From the IMG/VR virus record IMGVR_UViG_3300023109_001684: a stretch of 64,000 nt of DNA, one strand, 5' to 3'. Under the pieces are notes generated by a model that worked only from the letters and a program-made list of their open reading frames with translations, had not been told where the DNA came from and searched no databases. The stretch comes from a virus. This document shows, piece by piece, positions 54,967-59,442 of this stretch (position 1 is its first letter; each line of letters begins with the position of its first letter). The translations under genes were made by a program, and so were the position numbers.

Positions 54967-57555
54967 TTAATACACCGATCCTACGGATCCAAGTGCAGAT
55001 ATTTGTTTCTTACTATTTTTTTCAATTGACATTAAAATAGAAGCGGTGTTACTCATAGTAGTATTTAATTGATTTATAGCATTTATGACACCTTCTTGAT
55101 TAATTGTAGCACCATTATTATTAGTTGTCAATGAATTTAATTGTGCTTGCATCTTATCTGCATTTGCTAAAAACTTACCAGCGTTGCTATCTTCAGGAAC
55201 AACTGCTTCACGATTGTGTAGTTCTGCTAGTGTACCTGTTCCAAAGTCTCTAAATCCGTTAGTACCGTTCCTAAACTGTGGTGGCTGTCCAGCAGGGTTT
55301 AATATTGCCCTATGTTTAGCAATTTCAACTAATAGATCTGCAGGCATTGGTCGGTTCCTAAATGCTTCTATCCTTGCTGCATATTCTTCGTCTGTTTCTG
55401 CTTCTCTTGCACCTACACCAAAGAGACCATTAGATGCTTGTAGTTGCTCGCCAACAACTTGGCCTTGCATATACTCTAACCTATTAATATTTTTTTGTAG
55501 ATCTTCGTTTACTAAAGTAGCATTAGCAGGATCTAATCTTCCAGACTCAAGTCCGCGGATTTCGTAGTCTTTACGTTCTCGTCTTAATCTTTCGTTATCT
55601 AATACACCTAACTTATTATCAATTCCTTCTTGTAATCTTAACATTACTCCTTCAAAGTGATAACCAACAGTGTCTACTAATTGTGTGCCGCCAGTGGATG
55701 ACATAAAATCTTTTATAGAATCTACAAATGCGTTACCAATTCGCACTCCTAAGCTTTCACCTTCTTCGCCAGGAGGAAATAATTTGTCCATAACCTGTGA
55801 CATTAAACTTTTACCAGCAGTTTCGGAATCTTCAAGTCCAATCTTTTTCAAAAATTGTGCATATATTGATTCGGAACCTTCTCCAGTTTCGAACCCCACA
55901 AGTTCTAAGAACTTATTTGATACAAATTTATACATATCAGCAAATCCGGATGCTATTTTTTCAAATAATCCTCCTTGGCGTTGCATATCAGTTTCTTGAT
56001 CTCTTGGATCTACATCTACTAGCTCACCTAAGAAATAATCTTTTATATTTTCATATATTTCGCTAATCTTTCCTGAAGGATTAGCAGCAAACTCGTCAAC
56101 AAATTGATTAAAGTTTGTAATAAATCCTTGTATCTTTTCGTCAGTAAACATACCATCTAATAGATTAGTAATTGCAGGTGCTAATTTATCTATCATCGGT
56201 GTAAGAATTTTTGCTCTCATTTGTTCAATCATATTACTAAATTGAGCAAGTCCATTTGTAAGATCATCTCGTTGTGCTTGTTCGTCTTCTGCTGCTTTAC
56301 CTGATGCGTCTGTAATAGATAAAAATGCTGCTGCACTATCTTGTAAATCTGCAATCGGATGTCCTAATTGTCTCAATCCGCCAATTGCTTCGGGACTATT
56401 CATGAAATCAGCCATCATCGGGCCCATTTGTTTTAGTCTATCATTAAATTCTTCTTGAGTTAAGTTTCCTGCTCGGTATGCTTTCATTGTTTCTAATGCA
56501 AGACCGTCAGTCATACTTACTAATGAAGCTTCTAATGGATTGTTTGCAATTCCATCTGCTAATCCTTTTAGTGCTGTTACTGCTGCGCCGCCGCCTTGCT
56601 CTGCTATTTGACTCAGTCTAGCTGTGTTTGCATCAAATTCAGCTACATTTCCATTTCTAGCTAGAATTTCAGATCTAATACTACGAACCATTGCATCGGC
56701 TTGAGTTGCAGCAAGTGCCTGTTCAGCATCTTTTCTATTCATGCCTGTAATTTTTGTTAGTTTATCTAGTTCTTTAATGTAACTTACACTACCTTGTAGT
56801 AATTGATCATTAGATAGTCTTTCTAGATTACCTAAACGTGCTTGGTTTCTAGTATAGCTTGCTAAACCTTCCACAACGCCTTCAACAGTAAGTCCCATAC
56901 CAATCAATTGGCCGCGTAATCCTTGCTCCCCCATTGATTGATTTAATTGAATAAATCGTTTTGCACCTTCACTAGCAGTACTACCTAACATTTTCATTAC
57001 ATCTGAATTTCCAATTAGTGCATTTTCAAGTATTTCTGCATTAATACCTGATGTTACTAAGCTTCTTCCCATTTCTTTAATATCATTATTAAAAGATATA
57101 CCTACATCGGAAAAACTACGTAATCTATCCACTGCCGCTTCTAAGAATCGAGTAAAACTACCTAAATGCTCTCCTACCACAGGTAAATGATCAGCAAAAT
57201 CAGATAATCTAGTGCCTCCCATAACAAGTTGTTTAGATAGTCCAGTTGCACTACCTGCAATTCCTGCAATTCCGGCAACTAATCCATTAAATGCGTTACC
57301 TGCTAAACCTGATAGTGTACTTGTGCTCTTTTTCAGTGCAGCAGTATTTTTATCACGCTCTTCTGTGTTGTCTGCAATACTACCGGAAGCAGTTTTTAGT
57401 GATTTTTCATAATTTTGTAATACTTGTTGTTTAGGAGAATTTATGCCATTTGCTTTTGCCAACTTATCCATAGCCACAAGAAGCCTACGCAGAGTAACTT
57501 CACTAGCTACTCCGGCTTCGCCGCCTACATTACCAATATCGACTTCTTCTGCCAC
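54967..57555 (-). CDS. Tape-measure-like tail protein
   Basis: 862-aa A/G/L-rich helical protein with C-terminal GT.GF.DFG.GTLAELHNREAVVP motif; GTG start with GGAG RBS. Confidence 0.7.
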   Translation of the reverse strand: MAEEVDIGNVGGEAGVASEVTLRRLLVAMDKLAKANGINSPKQQVLQNYEKSLKTASGSIADNTEERDKNTAALKKSTSTLSGLAGNAFNGLVAGIAGIAGSATGLSKQLVMGGTRLSDFADHLPVVGEHLGSFTRFLEAAVDRLRSFSDVGISFNNDIKEMGRSLVTSGINAEILENALIGNSDVMKMLGSTASEGAKRFIQLNQSMGEQGLRGQLIGMGLTVEGVVEGLASYTRNQARLGNLERLSNDQLLQGSVSYIKELDKLTKITGMNRKDAEQALAATQADAMVRSIRSEILARNGNVAEFDANTARLSQIAEQGGGAAVTALKGLADGIANNPLEASLVSMTDGLALETMKAYRAGNLTQEEFNDRLKQMGPMMADFMNSPEAIGGLRQLGHPIADLQDSAAAFLSITDASGKAAEDEQAQRDDLTNGLAQFSNMIEQMRAKILTPMIDKLAPAITNLLDGMFTDEKIQGFITNFNQFVDEFAANPSGKISEIYENIKDYFLGELVDVDPRDQETDMQRQGGLFEKIASGFADMYKFVSNKFLELVGFETGEGSESIYAQFLKKIGLEDSETAGKSLMSQVMDKLFPPGEEGESLGVRIGNAFVDSIKDFMSSTGGTQLVDTVGYHFEGVMLRLQEGIDNKLGVLDNERLRRERKDYEIRGLESGRLDPANATLVNEDLQKNINRLEYMQGQVVGEQLQASNGLFGVGAREAETDEEYAARIEAFRNRPMPADLLVEIAKHRAILNPAGQPPQFRNGTNGFRDFGTGTLAELHNREAVVPEDSNAGKFLANADKMQAQLNSLTTNNNGATINQEGVINAINQLNTTMSNTASILMSIEKNSKKQISALGSVGSVY

Positions 57556-57582: not shown

Positions 57583-57620
57583 TATAAATATATATGATAC
57601 ATATTTACACATTGTATTTA
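57583..57620. promoter_or_regulatory. Overlapping opposed late promoters
   Basis: TATAAATA on + (57583-57590) toward the gp26-like gene; TAAATA on - (57602-57607 and 57615-57620) toward the tape measure gene. Confidence 0.65.
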
Positions 57621-57633
57621 TCAGGAGAAAAAC

Positions 57634-58485
57634 ATGTCGGAAACAAATAATCCGTTACATAAATTTTATAGACAGCCTAAAATTTATATTACATTACCAT
57701 CTAAAGGGCAATTTTGGAAACAAGGCTCTATTGATTTACCTGAGTCAGGTGAAATTCCAGTATTTGCTATGACAGCTAAAGACGAATTAATGACTAAAAC
57801 ACCAGATGCGTTATTAAACGGCGAAGCAACTGTTGAATTAATTCAAAGTTGTGTTCCTAATATCAAAGATGCTTGGCAAACACCAAGTACAGACTTTGAT
57901 GCAATACTAATTGCTATCCGTATTGCTACATATGGAGAGAATATGGACATTAGTTCATTTACTCCAGTAATATCAGAAGAAAAAACATTCTCTTTAGACT
58001 TAATAAGACTGCTGGATACTATTCAAGTCGAGTCATTTGAGACTCAGTTACATACTAACGAACTATCATTCGAAGTTAGACCGCTAACATATAAAGAAAT
58101 GACCGACACAACAAACGAAACGTTTGAAGAGCAGCGTATCTTTAATGCAGTGTCAAATAACGACATGCCTGAAAATGAAAAAATAGCACTTTTTAGAGAT
58201 AGCTTTAAAAAACTTACTGCACTAACAGTTAGAACATTAGAAAAAAGTATTGTTAGCATTACTGTTGGTGAAGATGTTGTAGTTAACCCAGCAATGATTG
58301 CAGATTTTATTAATAATAGTGAAAAAACTGTTTTTGAACTAATAAGCAAGCACATCGAAGTACAAAAAGATAAGTTTAAAATTAAACCTATGATTGTTGA
58401 TGCAACTCCGGAGGAAATTGAAAAAGGTGTTCCTGAAACCTATGAACTGCCTTTGATATTTGACCCATCAAGTTTTTTCGTATAA
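57634..58485 (+). CDS. gp26: Baseplate hub/tail assembly protein, T4 gp26-like
   Basis: ITLPSKG, MTAKDEL, D.DAILIAIRIATYGE and C-terminal SFF. Confidence 0.7.
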   Translation: MSETNNPLHKFYRQPKIYITLPSKGQFWKQGSIDLPESGEIPVFAMTAKDELMTKTPDALLNGEATVELIQSCVPNIKDAWQTPSTDFDAILIAIRIATYGENMDISSFTPVISEEKTFSLDLIRLLDTIQVESFETQLHTNELSFEVRPLTYKEMTDTTNETFEEQRIFNAVSNNDMPENEKIALFRDSFKKLTALTVRTLEKSIVSITVGEDVVVNPAMIADFINNSEKTVFELISKHIEVQKDKFKIKPMIVDATPEEIEKGVPETYELPLIFDPSSFFV

Positions 58486-58709
58486 GGATCTTAACTTTAA
58501 CGGTCGAAGAAGTATTAGCAGAAGTTAAGGTCCTTGAAAACGAGTGTAAAAATTTAAAATTAGAACTATTTAAATTTGCATGGTTTAGTCGAGGTAGCTT
58601 AACTATTGATCATGCATTTGATTTATGTATAGAAGATCGTGAACTTCTTCACGAAATGATTCAAGGAAATTTAGAAACTACTAAAGAATCAGGATTACCG
58701 TTCTTTTAA
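58473..58709 (+). CDS. Start-less -1 frame ORF (gp51-like small hub protein), probably reached by frameshift
   Basis: Not in the ORF track. Reads FFRIRILTLTVEEVL...AWFSRGSLTIDHAFDL...ETTKESGLPFF* and fills the gap exactly; no ATG/GTG/TTG until its last quarter. Confidence 0.7.
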   Translation, partial: FFRIRILTLTVEEVLAEVKVLENECKNLKLELFKFAWFSRGSLTIDHAFDLCIEDRELLHEMIQGNLETTKESGLPFF

Positions 58710-58710
58710 T

Positions 58711-59442
58711 TTATTTTGCTTGTCTAAACAATTGAAGAATACGTTGCTGACCGCCTTGGTCATTCATAGCTTGTGCTAACTTACCCAATAACGGTGCAAT
58801 TTCTTTTCTTTCATTAGGTGCTAGTACTTCACCGTTGCCTGCTTTTTGTAATGCTTTAGCAGCTATTGCAGGACTCTTAATACCAGTAGTAGATTTAAAC
58901 TTGTTCATAGCTTGTGCTACAGCTTTGTTATTTCCGGCTGCTGCTGGTGCACCGCCATCTGTAGCATATTTACTGCGCTGTTGTTGACCAGGTGCTTGTT
59001 GTTTAAACCCTTGTTGTACTAAACTCATAATAACTTTATCAATTACTTGCGGAGCAACAGCTTCAGTAACACTATTGTCTAAACTAGCTGTTAGTGTAGC
59101 TGGATTTGGCTTAGGTGTTGCAACAGGTTTCTTTGGAACAATTTTTCTTACAGTTTGTACAACTGAATTTTTATCAAACCCTGCTTTTTGTAAAAAGTCA
59201 ACTAGGTCATTAAGTTCTAATTGATTTTTCTTAATACCTGCTCCTGACATAAATTGATTTAATTCTCTTTTGATACGATTTGCTTCGTCACCTACATCAG
59301 CCTTAGTAGCCATCTTACCAGCAGCATTTTGCATACCAAGTTTACCTGCTACAGCTGAGCCAATTTTACGTGCTGCTTGACCTAACGCTCCAGCTGGTGC
59401 TTCATCTAAGTCATTTTCATTAAGAAGATCATTTATTTTCAT
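58711..59442 (-). CDS. Hypothetical late protein (possible internal head protein)
   Basis: Late box at 59474-59479; N-terminal MKINDLLNENDLDEAP with L-x-E sites; A/K/Q-rich. Confidence 0.7.
   Translation of the reverse strand: MKINDLLNENDLDEAPAGALGQAARKIGSAVAGKLGMQNAAGKMATKADVGDEANRIKRELNQFMSGAGIKKNQLELNDLVDFLQKAGFDKNSVVQTVRKIVPKKPVATPKPNPATLTASLDNSVTEAVAPQVIDKVIMSLVQQGFKQQAPGQQQRSKYATDGGAPAAAGNNKAVAQAMNKFKSTTGIKSPAIAAKALQKAGNGEVLAPNERKEIAPLLGKLAQAMNDQGGQQRILQLFRQAK

What the first reader, a model, noticed from the sequence alone, without database searches (positions are those of the whole stretch)
58461..58709. Probable -1 programmed frameshift extending the gp26-like protein (lambda G/GT-type) in a T4-like phage
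Seen: the gene ends AGT TTT TTC GTA TAA, placing the slippery heptamer T TTT TTC at 58473-58479. The -1 frame opens just before it (TGA at 58461) and runs to TAA 58709 as a protein-like sequence with no ATG/GTG/TTG until its last quarter. A shift would yield a 358-aa product beside the 283-aa one. Established: tail assembly chaperones next to tape-measure genes use such shifts (lambda G/GT; P2 E/E' on a T6 run), whereas T4 gp26 and gp51 are annotated as separate genes. Here the gene is divergently adjacent to the tape-measure-like gene. Inference: this pair is the G/GT chaperone equivalent.
Basis: partly seen in the sequence, partly recalled or inferred. Interest (0 to 1): 0.72.

Follow-up and report, generated by a model that had tools for sequence, protein, structure and literature searches.

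The report
Frameshift in phage tail chaperone gene
One tail-assembly gene of this uncultured marine giant phage very probably makes a short and a long protein because some ribosomes slip back one base on a conserved TTTTTTC, a trick already reported for T4-like phages, so this is a well-supported new example and not a new principle.

Summary
The gp26-like gene (57634-58485, Pfam PF12322) ends AGT TTT TTC GTA TAA. The -1 frame is open from 58464 to TAA 58707-58709 and has no ATG/GTG/TTG before 58656.

All 148 split loci examined (122 distinct) keep an in-phase T_TTT_TTC. The preceding codon is always NNT, although it encodes six different amino acids. A 76-residue -1-frame domain aligns without gaps from the Arg codon at the shift site.

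Twenty natural single-frame proteins join both parts exactly at that point (…F|R…). Eight in-frame loci lack the heptamer. Five of five in-frame phage records carry an adjacent short and long paralogue. Four of four frameshift-type records carry one gene.

A covarying hairpin starts 3-6 nt after the heptamer (window: 16 bp, z -3.75). The N-terminal 140 residues fold most like HK97-type tail assembly chaperones (Z 6.2, 5.7, 5.0).

So this is a tail assembly chaperone pair (short form TAC-N, long form TAC-NC) made by -1 ribosomal frameshifting. T4 makes the equivalent pair from genes 26 and 51. Papers citing Vladimirov et al. 2022 indicate the principle is in print. This scan has also found it in at least eight other genomes. 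No protein-level evidence exists.

The parts
57634..58485 (+). Zero-frame ORF for the short form (TAC-N-like, gp26-like), 283 aa
   Evidence: ORF list. Pfam PF12322 T4_baseplate scores 36 bits against a cut-off of 24.5, and phrog_150 'baseplate hub' matches. Residues 1-140 fold like HK97-type tail assembly chaperones.
58473..58479 (+). Slippery heptamer T_TTT_TTC in X XXY YYZ phase
   Evidence: Read. It is present and in phase in all 148 split loci, 122 of them distinct, and absent from 8 of 8 in-frame loci.
58483..58485 (+). Zero-frame stop TAA, one codon after the heptamer
   Evidence: In relatives the stop lies 3, 9, 12, 18 or 33 nt after the heptamer.
58479..58709 (+). -1 frame extension: 76 codons from CGT at 58479, plus TAA at 58707-58709. 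This is the C-terminal domain of the 358-aa long form.
   Evidence: Translation. It aligns without gaps from the first Arg in 52 distinct relatives. It forms the C-terminus of 20 natural single-frame proteins.
58483..58498 (+). 5' arm of the predicted frameshift-stimulating hairpin
   Evidence: strand folding gives a 16-bp helix with MFE -22.1 kcal/mol and z -3.75. Covariation appears in the 16 sequences that share this register.
58521..58536 (+). 3' arm of the hairpin
54967..57555 (-). Divergent neighbour of 862 aa, tape-measure-like by position
   Evidence: The order portal, large virion protein, divergent gp26-like gene recurs in PA5oct and 121Q; RaK2 and pEa_SNUABM_47 show the large protein beside the gp26-like gene. 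Relatives annotate it as a virion structural protein or a putative tape measure. Atlas look-alikes are tape-measure clusters at score 0.93. No Pfam, PHROG or NCBIfam hit.
57583..57590 (+). TATAAATA, the T4-type late-promoter motif (motif recalled), 44 nt before the ATG
   Evidence: Read. Its function is inferred and was not tested.

Best explanation
The gene at 57634 encodes a tail/baseplate-hub assembly chaperone of the T4 gp26/gp51 family. Most ribosomes stop at TAA 58483 and release a 283-aa short form. A fraction slips back one base on T_TTT_TTC (58473-58479), with both Phe-tRNAs re-pairing on TTT. A hairpin beginning 3-6 nt downstream probably stimulates the slip. These ribosomes continue in the -1 frame to 58709 and make a 358-aa long form (…SSFF-RIRILT…) that carries a three-helix C-terminal domain. 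Both forms are needed. Phages without the heptamer encode a short and a long paralogue side by side, and T4 encodes gp26 (short) and gp51 (long). By analogy with lambda G/GT, the shared N-terminal part would hold the tape-measure/hub proteins and the extra domain would dock them to the growing tail. The sequence comparisons show the slip site, the -1 coding domain, the hairpin and the single-frame orthologues. The slip itself, its efficiency and the binding partners are inferred.
For: 1. Slip site. 69 of 69 loci with the gene end present (window, 3 cultured, 65 IMG/VR; 2 more are cut) have in-frame TTTTTTC. So do 8 of 8 further cultured jumbo phages and 72 of 72 split loci of a second scan.

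2. Synonymous constraint. In 122 distinct contexts the preceding codon is AAT 78, AGT 28, CAT 5, GAT 5, ACT 4, CGT 2. It is always NNT although it encodes six amino acids. FF is always TTT TTC. T4 gene 26, which has no extension, uses TTC TTT.

3. The -1 domain. The extension aligns without gaps from the Arg codon at the shift site. The zero-frame stop moves (3 to 33 nt after the heptamer), and the occasional ATG is the Met variant of an I/L/M column.

4. Natural fusions. 20 of the best 150 hits of the extension profile are 319-351-aa proteins with the domain at their C-terminus, and 20 of 20 carry PF12322. P0022 residues 2-255 align to window gp26 11-282, and residues 256-331 align to the extension 1-76. 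The fused model has pLDDT 96.1 and pTM 0.91.

5. One gene or two. 8 of 8 in-frame loci lack the heptamer. 5 of 5 in-frame records have an adjacent long (with extension) and short (without) PF12322 gene. 4 of 4 frameshift-type records, three of them at least 95% complete, have one.

6. Hairpin. An uninterrupted helix of 10 bp or more starts 2-9 nt after the heptamer in 72 of 120 distinct sequences, against 25 of 1080 control anchors. Covariation is 0.185 against 0.112 shuffled and 0.324 against 0.195 shuffled, with 0 of 500 shuffles reaching either value. The window's fold has z -3.75.

7. Chaperone fold. The top three of 48,161 chains are 3klu (Z 6.2), HK97 tail assembly chaperone 2ob9 (Z 5.7) and 3fgx (Z 5.0); the next is 3.4.

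8. Literature. T4 gp26 and gp51 are listed as 'hub assembly chaperone' (PMC3004832). Papers citing Vladimirov et al. 2022 describe short and long chaperone genes and poly-T slip sites in T4-like phages.
Against: There is no protein, ribosome-profiling or reporter evidence for any member. 67 of 122 distinct relatives have an ATG, GTG or TTG within five codons after the shift site, so separate initiation cannot be excluded for them from sequence alone. About a fifth of the sequences show no convincing hairpin (helices of 5-6 bp in 20 of 120; z near 0 for L032-L036, L043, L057, L059 and L060). The related sequences are not independent, so the p-values overstate support. The spacer to the first, weak pairs of the window's helix is only 3 nt (6 nt to the G-C core). 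The structural matches to tail assembly chaperones have modest Z and high rmsd (7.1, 7.3 and 4.5 Å). Homology of the 48-residue C-terminal tail of T4 gp51 to this extension is not significant. The gene is divergent from the tape-measure-like gene, and that gene's identity is not shown.
Confidence: 0.88

Rival explanations
1. Two separate proteins. The downstream ORF is translated on its own by termination-reinitiation, or from a non-canonical or nearby start, giving a free ~70-aa protein. The TTTTTTC would then be conserved only because it encodes Phe-Phe.
For: GenBank records annotate a separate small CDS in 121Q, GAP32, CBB, XbC2, fHe-Yen9-04, pEa_SNUABM_47, Phosso and SD-6_S16. 67 of 122 distinct relatives have a canonical start within five codons of the shift site, often ATGA or TAATG overlaps.
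Against: The window has no start before 58656 and PA5oct has none at all. 49 of 122 have none within five codons. Conservation in the -1 frame begins at the heptamer, upstream of the annotated starts and of the zero-frame stop. The NNT TTT TTC codon choice is a synonymous-site constraint that the protein cannot explain. Single-frame orthologues are continuous across the junction.
Confidence: 0.05
2. Transcriptional slippage. RNA polymerase adds one U on the T6 run, and the altered mRNA encodes the long form.
For: The element is a homopolymer run. Contigs cannot show rare RNA variants, so one search does not exclude it.
Against: Six T is shorter than the runs of nine or so known to give efficient slippage in bacteria (recalled). 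A covarying hairpin placed 3-6 nt downstream suits a ribosomal mechanism. The RNA-library contig across the site carries the templated T6.
Confidence: 0.04
3. A broken gene or an assembly error: the two ORFs are a single gene split by a one-base error in a homopolymer.
For: Homopolymer runs are error-prone in some sequencing chemistries.
Against: The same split with the same heptamer occurs in 148 loci from many samples and in 11 cultured phage genomes. Independent DNA and RNA contigs agree. Single-frame relatives have one Phe codon at the junction, not a T7 run.
Confidence: 0.01

Closest known systems
T4-like tail assembly chaperones TAC-N / TAC-NC, i.e. T4 gp26 and gp51 (Vladimirov, Gautam & Davidson, Virology 2022;566:9-15, PMID 34826709). 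The paper is not held. I saw only its title and what two papers say when citing it.
   Same: Same protein family: window gene, T4 gp26 and T4 gp51 are all PF12322. All give a short and a long form. According to PMC12846349, poly-T slip sites are known in TAC-N genes of T4-like phages. According to PMC10274946, some T4-like phages instead carry a short gene and a long fusion gene.
   Different: The window belongs to a jumbo-phage branch. Its nearest cultured relatives are Atu_ph07, Phosso, PA5oct and the RaK2/121Q group at 30-32% identity. I could not check whether the paper covers that branch. T4's genes are divergent and separate. The C-terminal tail of gp51 (48 aa) shows no significant similarity to the 76-aa domain here.
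Lambda gpG/gpGT and P2 gpE/gpE+E': the conserved -1 frameshift in tail assembly chaperone genes (Xu, Hendrix & Duda, Mol Cell 2004). Recalled; also summarised in PMC10274946.
   Same: A -1 slip on an X XXY YYZ heptamer close to the zero-frame stop gives a C-terminally extended minor form. The gene lies beside the tape-measure-like gene. The N-terminal fold resembles HK97 tail assembly chaperone 2ob9 (Z 5.7, 88 residues aligned).
   Different: No sequence-level membership: only PF12322 is found, and no Phage_TAC family. The short form is about twice as long (283 aa) and has extra helical parts. The gene is divergent from the tape-measure-like gene, not directly upstream and co-oriented.
The dnaX tau/gamma and IS-element -1 frameshift cassettes (heptamer plus downstream stem-loop). 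Recalled.
   Same: An in-phase slippery heptamer followed within a few nucleotides by a stable hairpin.
   Different: I saw no upstream Shine-Dalgarno-like stimulator in the window. Here the shift lengthens the protein. The 3' arm of the hairpin sits at different distances in different clades (helix end near 38, 54, 73 or 98 nt after the heptamer).

Membership tests
Programmed -1 ribosomal frameshift cassette | Slippery heptamer X XXY YYZ in the zero-frame phase | tested here: met
   T_TTT_TTC at 58473-58479 with codons TTT and TTC in frame. In phase in 122 of 122 distinct relatives.
Programmed -1 ribosomal frameshift cassette | The -1 ORF overlaps the site, runs past the zero-frame stop and is conserved as protein from the site onward | tested here: met
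   The extension has 76 codons in 103 of 122 distinct relatives.
Programmed -1 ribosomal frameshift cassette | Stimulatory RNA structure a few nucleotides downstream | tested here: met
   A 16-bp helix at 58483-98/58521-36 with z -3.75. Covariation controls. 72 of 120 sequences against 25 of 1080 control anchors have a helix of 10 bp or more. A subset shows no helix.
Programmed -1 ribosomal frameshift cassette | A trans-frame protein is actually made | not testable with these tools
   No proteomic or ribosome-profiling data were at hand. Contigs from RNA libraries show only that the stretch is present in them.
Pfam PF12322 T4_baseplate (T4 gp26/gp51) | Profile match above the gathering score | tested here: met
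   36 bits against 24.5, residues 40-242. T4 gp26 scores 215.6 bits and gp51 177.5 bits.
Tail assembly chaperone, lambda G/GT type | Short and long forms share the N-terminus, and the long form comes from a -1 shift near the stop | tested here: met
   Shown at sequence level only.
Tail assembly chaperone, lambda G/GT type | Tail assembly chaperone fold | tested here: met
   Model of residues 1-140 (pLDDT 84.5). The only chains with Z of 5 or more among 48,161 are 3klu_A (Z 6.2, rmsd 7.1, 90 aligned), 2ob9_B HK97 tail assembly chaperone (Z 5.7, rmsd 7.3, 88 aligned) and 3fgx_B (Z 5.0, rmsd 4.5, 87 aligned); the next is 3.4. Z is modest and rmsd is high.
Tail assembly chaperone, lambda G/GT type | Sequence membership in a Phage_TAC Pfam family | tested here: not met
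   Pfam returns only PF12322 for the short form and nothing for the extension.
Tail assembly chaperone, lambda G/GT type | Gene directly upstream of, and co-oriented with, the tape measure gene | tested here: not met
   It is adjacent but divergent: 54967-57555 on the minus strand against 57634 on the plus strand. The same arrangement occurs in PA5oct, 121Q, RaK2 and others.
Tail assembly chaperone, lambda G/GT type | Binds the tape measure protein (shared part) and the tail tube protein (extension) | not tested
   No complex prediction was run.

The most novel reading that the evidence does not exclude
The jumbo-phage branch (RaK2/121Q, PA5oct, Atu_ph07/Phosso and a very large set of uncultured aquatic relatives) uses a frameshift cassette that is neither annotated nor described for it. 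The cassette has an invariant T_TTT_TTC and a covarying hairpin. The hairpin's 5' arm is fixed, but its 3' partner has moved at least three times during evolution, so that the codons for R-L-L-T and E-S-K-A co-vary. The one-gene frameshift solution and a tandem short-plus-long two-gene solution have replaced each other within one protein family.
Probability: 0.4. Interest if true: 0.5.

Novelty: new member of a known kind. Interest (0 to 1): 0.38.

Why it matters
It places the T4 superfamily, giant phages included, under the rule that long-tailed phages make a short and a long tail assembly chaperone. It also shows within one protein family that a frameshift and a gene duplication are interchangeable ways to get the pair.

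In practice, none of the 11 cultured jumbo-phage records inspected annotates a joined (slippage) product. The records either leave the region empty (PA5oct, RaK2), annotate only an internal piece of the -1 ORF as a small gene (Atu_ph07), or call a small hypothetical gene (the other eight). These annotations should be corrected.

The cassette is short, strictly conserved and present in cultured phages. It is therefore easy to test, and it is a clean case for studying how an RNA hairpin constrains the protein it encodes.

Tried and rejected
- **Extension against libraries.** Searches in Pfam, PHROGs and NCBIfam gave no family. tblastn of the 81-aa ORF against cultured phages found no match, because the query is too short and divergent.
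- **T4 gp51 tail.** hhalign of the extension profile against T4 gp51 or gp26 gave probability 8% on the wrong region and 0.1%. hmmsearch placed gp51 residues 224-246 on extension positions 41-63, but at -2.5 to 0.3 bits. Homology of the gp51 tail is not shown.
- **gp51 relatives.** A region search with gp51 residues 190-249 returned only 3 close relatives, so it was no use for a profile.
- **P0022 in IMG/VR.** The search for related loci with P0022 alone found nothing. The alignment query worked.
- **Structure searches.** Foldseek against the PDB gave nothing for either model, with best E 0.43 and 0.46. VIA-align on the whole 331-aa model matched only generic helical hairpins at residues 130-184, best Z 8.2. 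The profile of A4 against PDB sequences gave nothing relevant.
- **The 862-aa neighbour.** Against PA5oct gp335 the only match is 78 residues at E 0.005. Its tape-measure identity stays positional.
- **CBB virion mass spectrometry (PMC5259590, passages only).** The list I saw includes CBB_251 but not 250 or 249. The paper's gene numbering may differ from RefSeq, so I draw nothing from it.
- **Laid contigs.** They cannot show rare slippage variants or expression level, and uncovered bins mean nothing.
- **Not available or not run.** The window's own assembly is not held.
- **Literature searches for the frameshift in print** found no paper describing it for these jumbo phages. One search found only papers that cite Vladimirov et al. 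2022.

Full report
**What is in the window**

One search shows the gene 57634..58485 (+) ending AGT TTT TTC GTA TAA. The heptamer T TTT TTC occupies 58473-58479 in X XXY YYZ phase. The -1 frame is closed by TGA at 58461-58463. It is then open from 58464 to TAA 58707-58709. Its first ATG/GTG/TTG is the ATG at 58656. A -1 slip on the heptamer gives 282 + 76 = 358 residues beside the 283-residue zero-frame product.

The gene is a member of Pfam PF12322 'T4_baseplate' (36 bits, cut-off 24.5) and of phrog_150 'baseplate hub'. Upstream and divergent lies an 862-aa ORF, followed by a T4-type portal gene (PF07230, 1.6e-109). Downstream lie a convergent 243-aa ORF and two large minus-strand ORFs at 60749-63531 that look like T4 gp46 and gp47 (names recalled; relatives annotate their counterpart as gp46-type recombination endonuclease). 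A TATAAATA motif (T4 late-promoter consensus, recalled) sits 44 nt before the ATG.

**Relatives and the slip site**

The nearest cultured relatives are jumbo myoviruses at 30-32% identity: Atu_ph07, Phosso, the PA5oct group, and the 121Q/PBECO4 and RaK2 groups (94 records).

- In 69 of 69 loci whose gene end is present (window, 3 cultured, 65 IMG/VR; two more are cut), an in-frame TTTTTTC lies 10-19 nt before the zero-frame stop, and a -1 ORF continues for about 70-75 codons past that stop. One IMG/VR locus is identical to the window.
- Eight further cultured phages (RaK2, GAP32, CBB, XbC2, fHe-Yen9-04, pEa_SNUABM_47, Phosso, SD-6_S16) all have it, with the stop 10-40 nt from the heptamer's first base.
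- A second IMG/VR scan kept 80 of at least 598 matching loci. Of these, 72 are split and 72 of 72 have the heptamer at the junction. Eight are single-frame and none of them has it.

Over 148 loci (122 distinct contexts), the codon before TTT TTC is AAT 78, AGT 28, CAT 5, GAT 5, ACT 4 and CGT 2. The amino acid there varies among six kinds, but the third base is always T, and Phe-Phe is always TTT TTC. A protein-level constraint cannot explain this. T4 gene 26 ends …KEFFELL* and has no extension; it writes the same Phe-Phe as TTC TTT.

**The -1 frame is a protein domain that starts at the slip site**

The 76-residue extension of 52 distinct loci aligns without gaps from the Arg codon that follows the heptamer. 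The consensus is RxRLLxL…WYMRGG…ER..II..IIKENLETTKKSGLPFF. The position of the zero-frame stop varies: 3, 9, 12, 18 or 33 nt after the heptamer.

The ATG that overlaps the stop in some relatives is the Met variant of an Ile/Leu/Met column. In the phages with annotated downstream CDSs, the conserved RxxLL… residues lie upstream of the annotated start.

In fairness to the rival, 67 of 122 distinct relatives have an ATG, GTG or TTG within five codons of the site. 18 have the first one 6-20 codons in, 30 have it more than 20 codons in, 1 has none, and 6 have one upstream.

**Natural single-frame fusions**

A profile of the extension (27 sequences) was searched against 1.84 billion representatives. 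It found 491 proteins at E ≤ 1e-3 and 198 at E ≤ 1e-10. Of the best 150, 20 are 319-351 aa long with the domain at their very C-terminus. All 20 carry PF12322 in front of it, above the cut-off.

P0022 residues 2-255 align to the window's short form 11-282 (5e-32). Residues 256-331 align to the window's extension 1-76 (1e-19). The junction …SELF|RNKIL… matches …SSFF|RIRIL…. AlphaFold models the natural long form as one confident body, with pLDDT 96.1 and pTM 0.91. The extension forms helices 251-260, 264-293, 298-302 and 306-325.

No cultured phage has the single-frame form. In 93 records, tblastn matches with P0022 stop by about residue 240-257, at or before the junction (residue 255), and none covers 80% of the query.

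Five of five records holding a single-frame long gene also hold an adjacent second PF12322 gene. That second gene lacks the extension domain: it matches profile positions 3-4 to 230-256 and gives no hit to the extension profile. Four of four frameshift-type records, three of them 95-99% complete by CheckV, hold a single PF12322 gene.

T4 has two PF12322 genes, gp26 (208 aa) and gp51 (249 aa), and gp51 is longer at the C-terminus. This pattern argues that both forms are needed. The similarity of the 48-residue tail of gp51 to the 76-residue domain is not significant, so that particular equivalence is inferred.

**Downstream RNA structure**

In the window, a 16-bp helix (58483-58498 with 58521-58536, three G·U pairs) follows the heptamer. 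The spacer is 3 nt to its weak outer pairs and 6 nt to the G-C core. MFE is -22.1 kcal/mol and z is -3.75, with 1 of 200 shuffles folding as well.

- Over 50 sequences, the 95 nt after the heptamer fold better than shuffles (mean z -1.9). Windows inside the same genes give -0.44 (Wilcoxon 4e-7).
- In 120 distinct sequences, the best uninterrupted helix starting 2-9 nt after the heptamer has 10 bp or more in 72. Only 25 of 1080 control anchors reach that.
- The 5' arm is fixed, but the 3' arm ends near 38, 54, 73 or 98 nt in different clades.
- In the largest class (50 sequences), eight pairs show double changes. Examples are U-A to C-G in 7 sequences and G-C to A-U in 7. The covariation score is 0.185 against 0.112 in shuffles (0 of 500 reach it) and at most 0.096 when the partner is slid.
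- In the window's class (16 sequences), the score is 0.324 against 0.195 (0 of 500).

Three caveats apply. I derived the structures from these sequences. The sequences are related. About a fifth show no convincing helix.

**What the protein is**

T4 gp26 and gp51 are listed as 'hub assembly chaperone', and gp51 is said to be required but absent from the particle (PMC3004832, passages; PMC9024508, passage).

A model of the window's residues 1-140 (pLDDT 84.5) was compared with 48,161 chains. Only three reach Z 5: 3klu_A YqbN (6.2, rmsd 7.1 Å, 90 aligned), 2ob9_B 'bacteriophage HK97 tail assembly chaperone' (5.7, 7.3 Å, 88 aligned) and 3fgx_B (5.0, 4.5 Å, 87 aligned). The next is 3.4. Z is modest and rmsd is high, but the hits are specific and coherent. 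Foldseek found nothing.

The 862-aa neighbour has no family hit. Its homologues by position are annotated as virion structural proteins or tape measures. Atlas look-alikes are tape-measure clusters at 0.93, which is a lead only.

**Presence in nature**

The stretch occurs in marine metagenomes of at least 15 studies. A contig from an RNA library covers 58402-58641 with no difference. An independent DNA contig covers 58374-58750 with one substitution and no indel. This excludes an assembly error. It does not measure expression or rare slippage.

**Literature and novelty**

My own searches found no paper on a frameshift in gp26-like genes of jumbo phages.

The paper is not held. I saw only its title and two citing passages. 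PMC10274946 says that some T4-like phages carry a short gene and a long fusion gene instead of frameshifting. PMC12846349 says that poly-T slip sequences are known in TAC-N genes of T4-like phages.

So the principle appears to be in print, and I rate this a new member of a known kind. I could not check whether the paper describes three things: the jumbo-phage branch, the covarying and relocated hairpin, and the correlation between tandem paralogues and loss of the heptamer. The scan has reported the same cassette in at least eight other genomes.

**Verdict**

The most likely mechanism is -1 ribosomal frameshifting on T_TTT_TTC, stimulated by a downstream hairpin, giving TAC-N (283 aa) and TAC-NC (358 aa). 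My confidence in the recoding is 0.88. My confidence in the chaperone role with the tape-measure/hub proteins is lower, about 0.7, because that role is inferred.

Noticed in passing
window 57583-57590: TATAAATA, the T4 late-promoter consensus (recalled), lies 44 nt upstream of the gp26-like ATG. An ORF at 63585-63998 (-) resembles the T4 late sigma factor gp55 by my recollection of that protein; it was not scanned against any library.
   Followed up: no
L071 7803-8090 (T4 gene 26'): The T4 record annotates an internal in-frame product 26' (95 aa) inside gene 26. T4 therefore also makes nested products from this gene, by internal initiation rather than by frameshift.
   Followed up: no
window 57634-58485; alignments A4 and A5: The single-frame relatives keep four invariant cysteines (C96, C99, C244, C247 of P0043), a zinc-ribbon-like pair of CxxC also present in T4 gp26 and gp51. 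Some frameshift-type relatives keep them too, but the window's protein has lost them.
   Followed up: partly
L076 617-1492 (Yersinia phage fHe-Yen9-04 g243c): The gp26-like gene is annotated as 'Lead, cadmium, zinc and mercury transporting ATPase', which is clearly a mis-annotation. PA5oct and RaK2 leave the extension region unannotated, and Atu_ph07 annotates only an internal piece of it.
   Followed up: partly
T4 gp51 relatives P0004-P0006: The precomputed domain list shows a family PF28602 beside PF12322. It is not in the Pfam copy at hand, so I could not see which part of gp51 it covers.
   Followed up: no
window 58711-59442 (-): A convergent 243-aa ORF ends 2 nt after the extension's stop. 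It has no family, only sub-threshold UBA-like hits (E 0.004-0.009), and it is rich in Ala, Gln and Lys.
   Followed up: no
alignments A2, A6 and A7; The 3' arm of the hairpin lies in different codons in different clades (helix end near 38, 54, 73 or 98 nt after the heptamer), while the 5' arm stays put. The amino acids R-L-L-T/S and E-S/T-K-A co-vary with the pairing.
   Followed up: partly
window 60091-60537 (-): A 148-aa ORF with a motif that looks like GIY-YIG (…YLITNTTTGQKYIGK…), probably a small homing-type nuclease.
   Followed up: no
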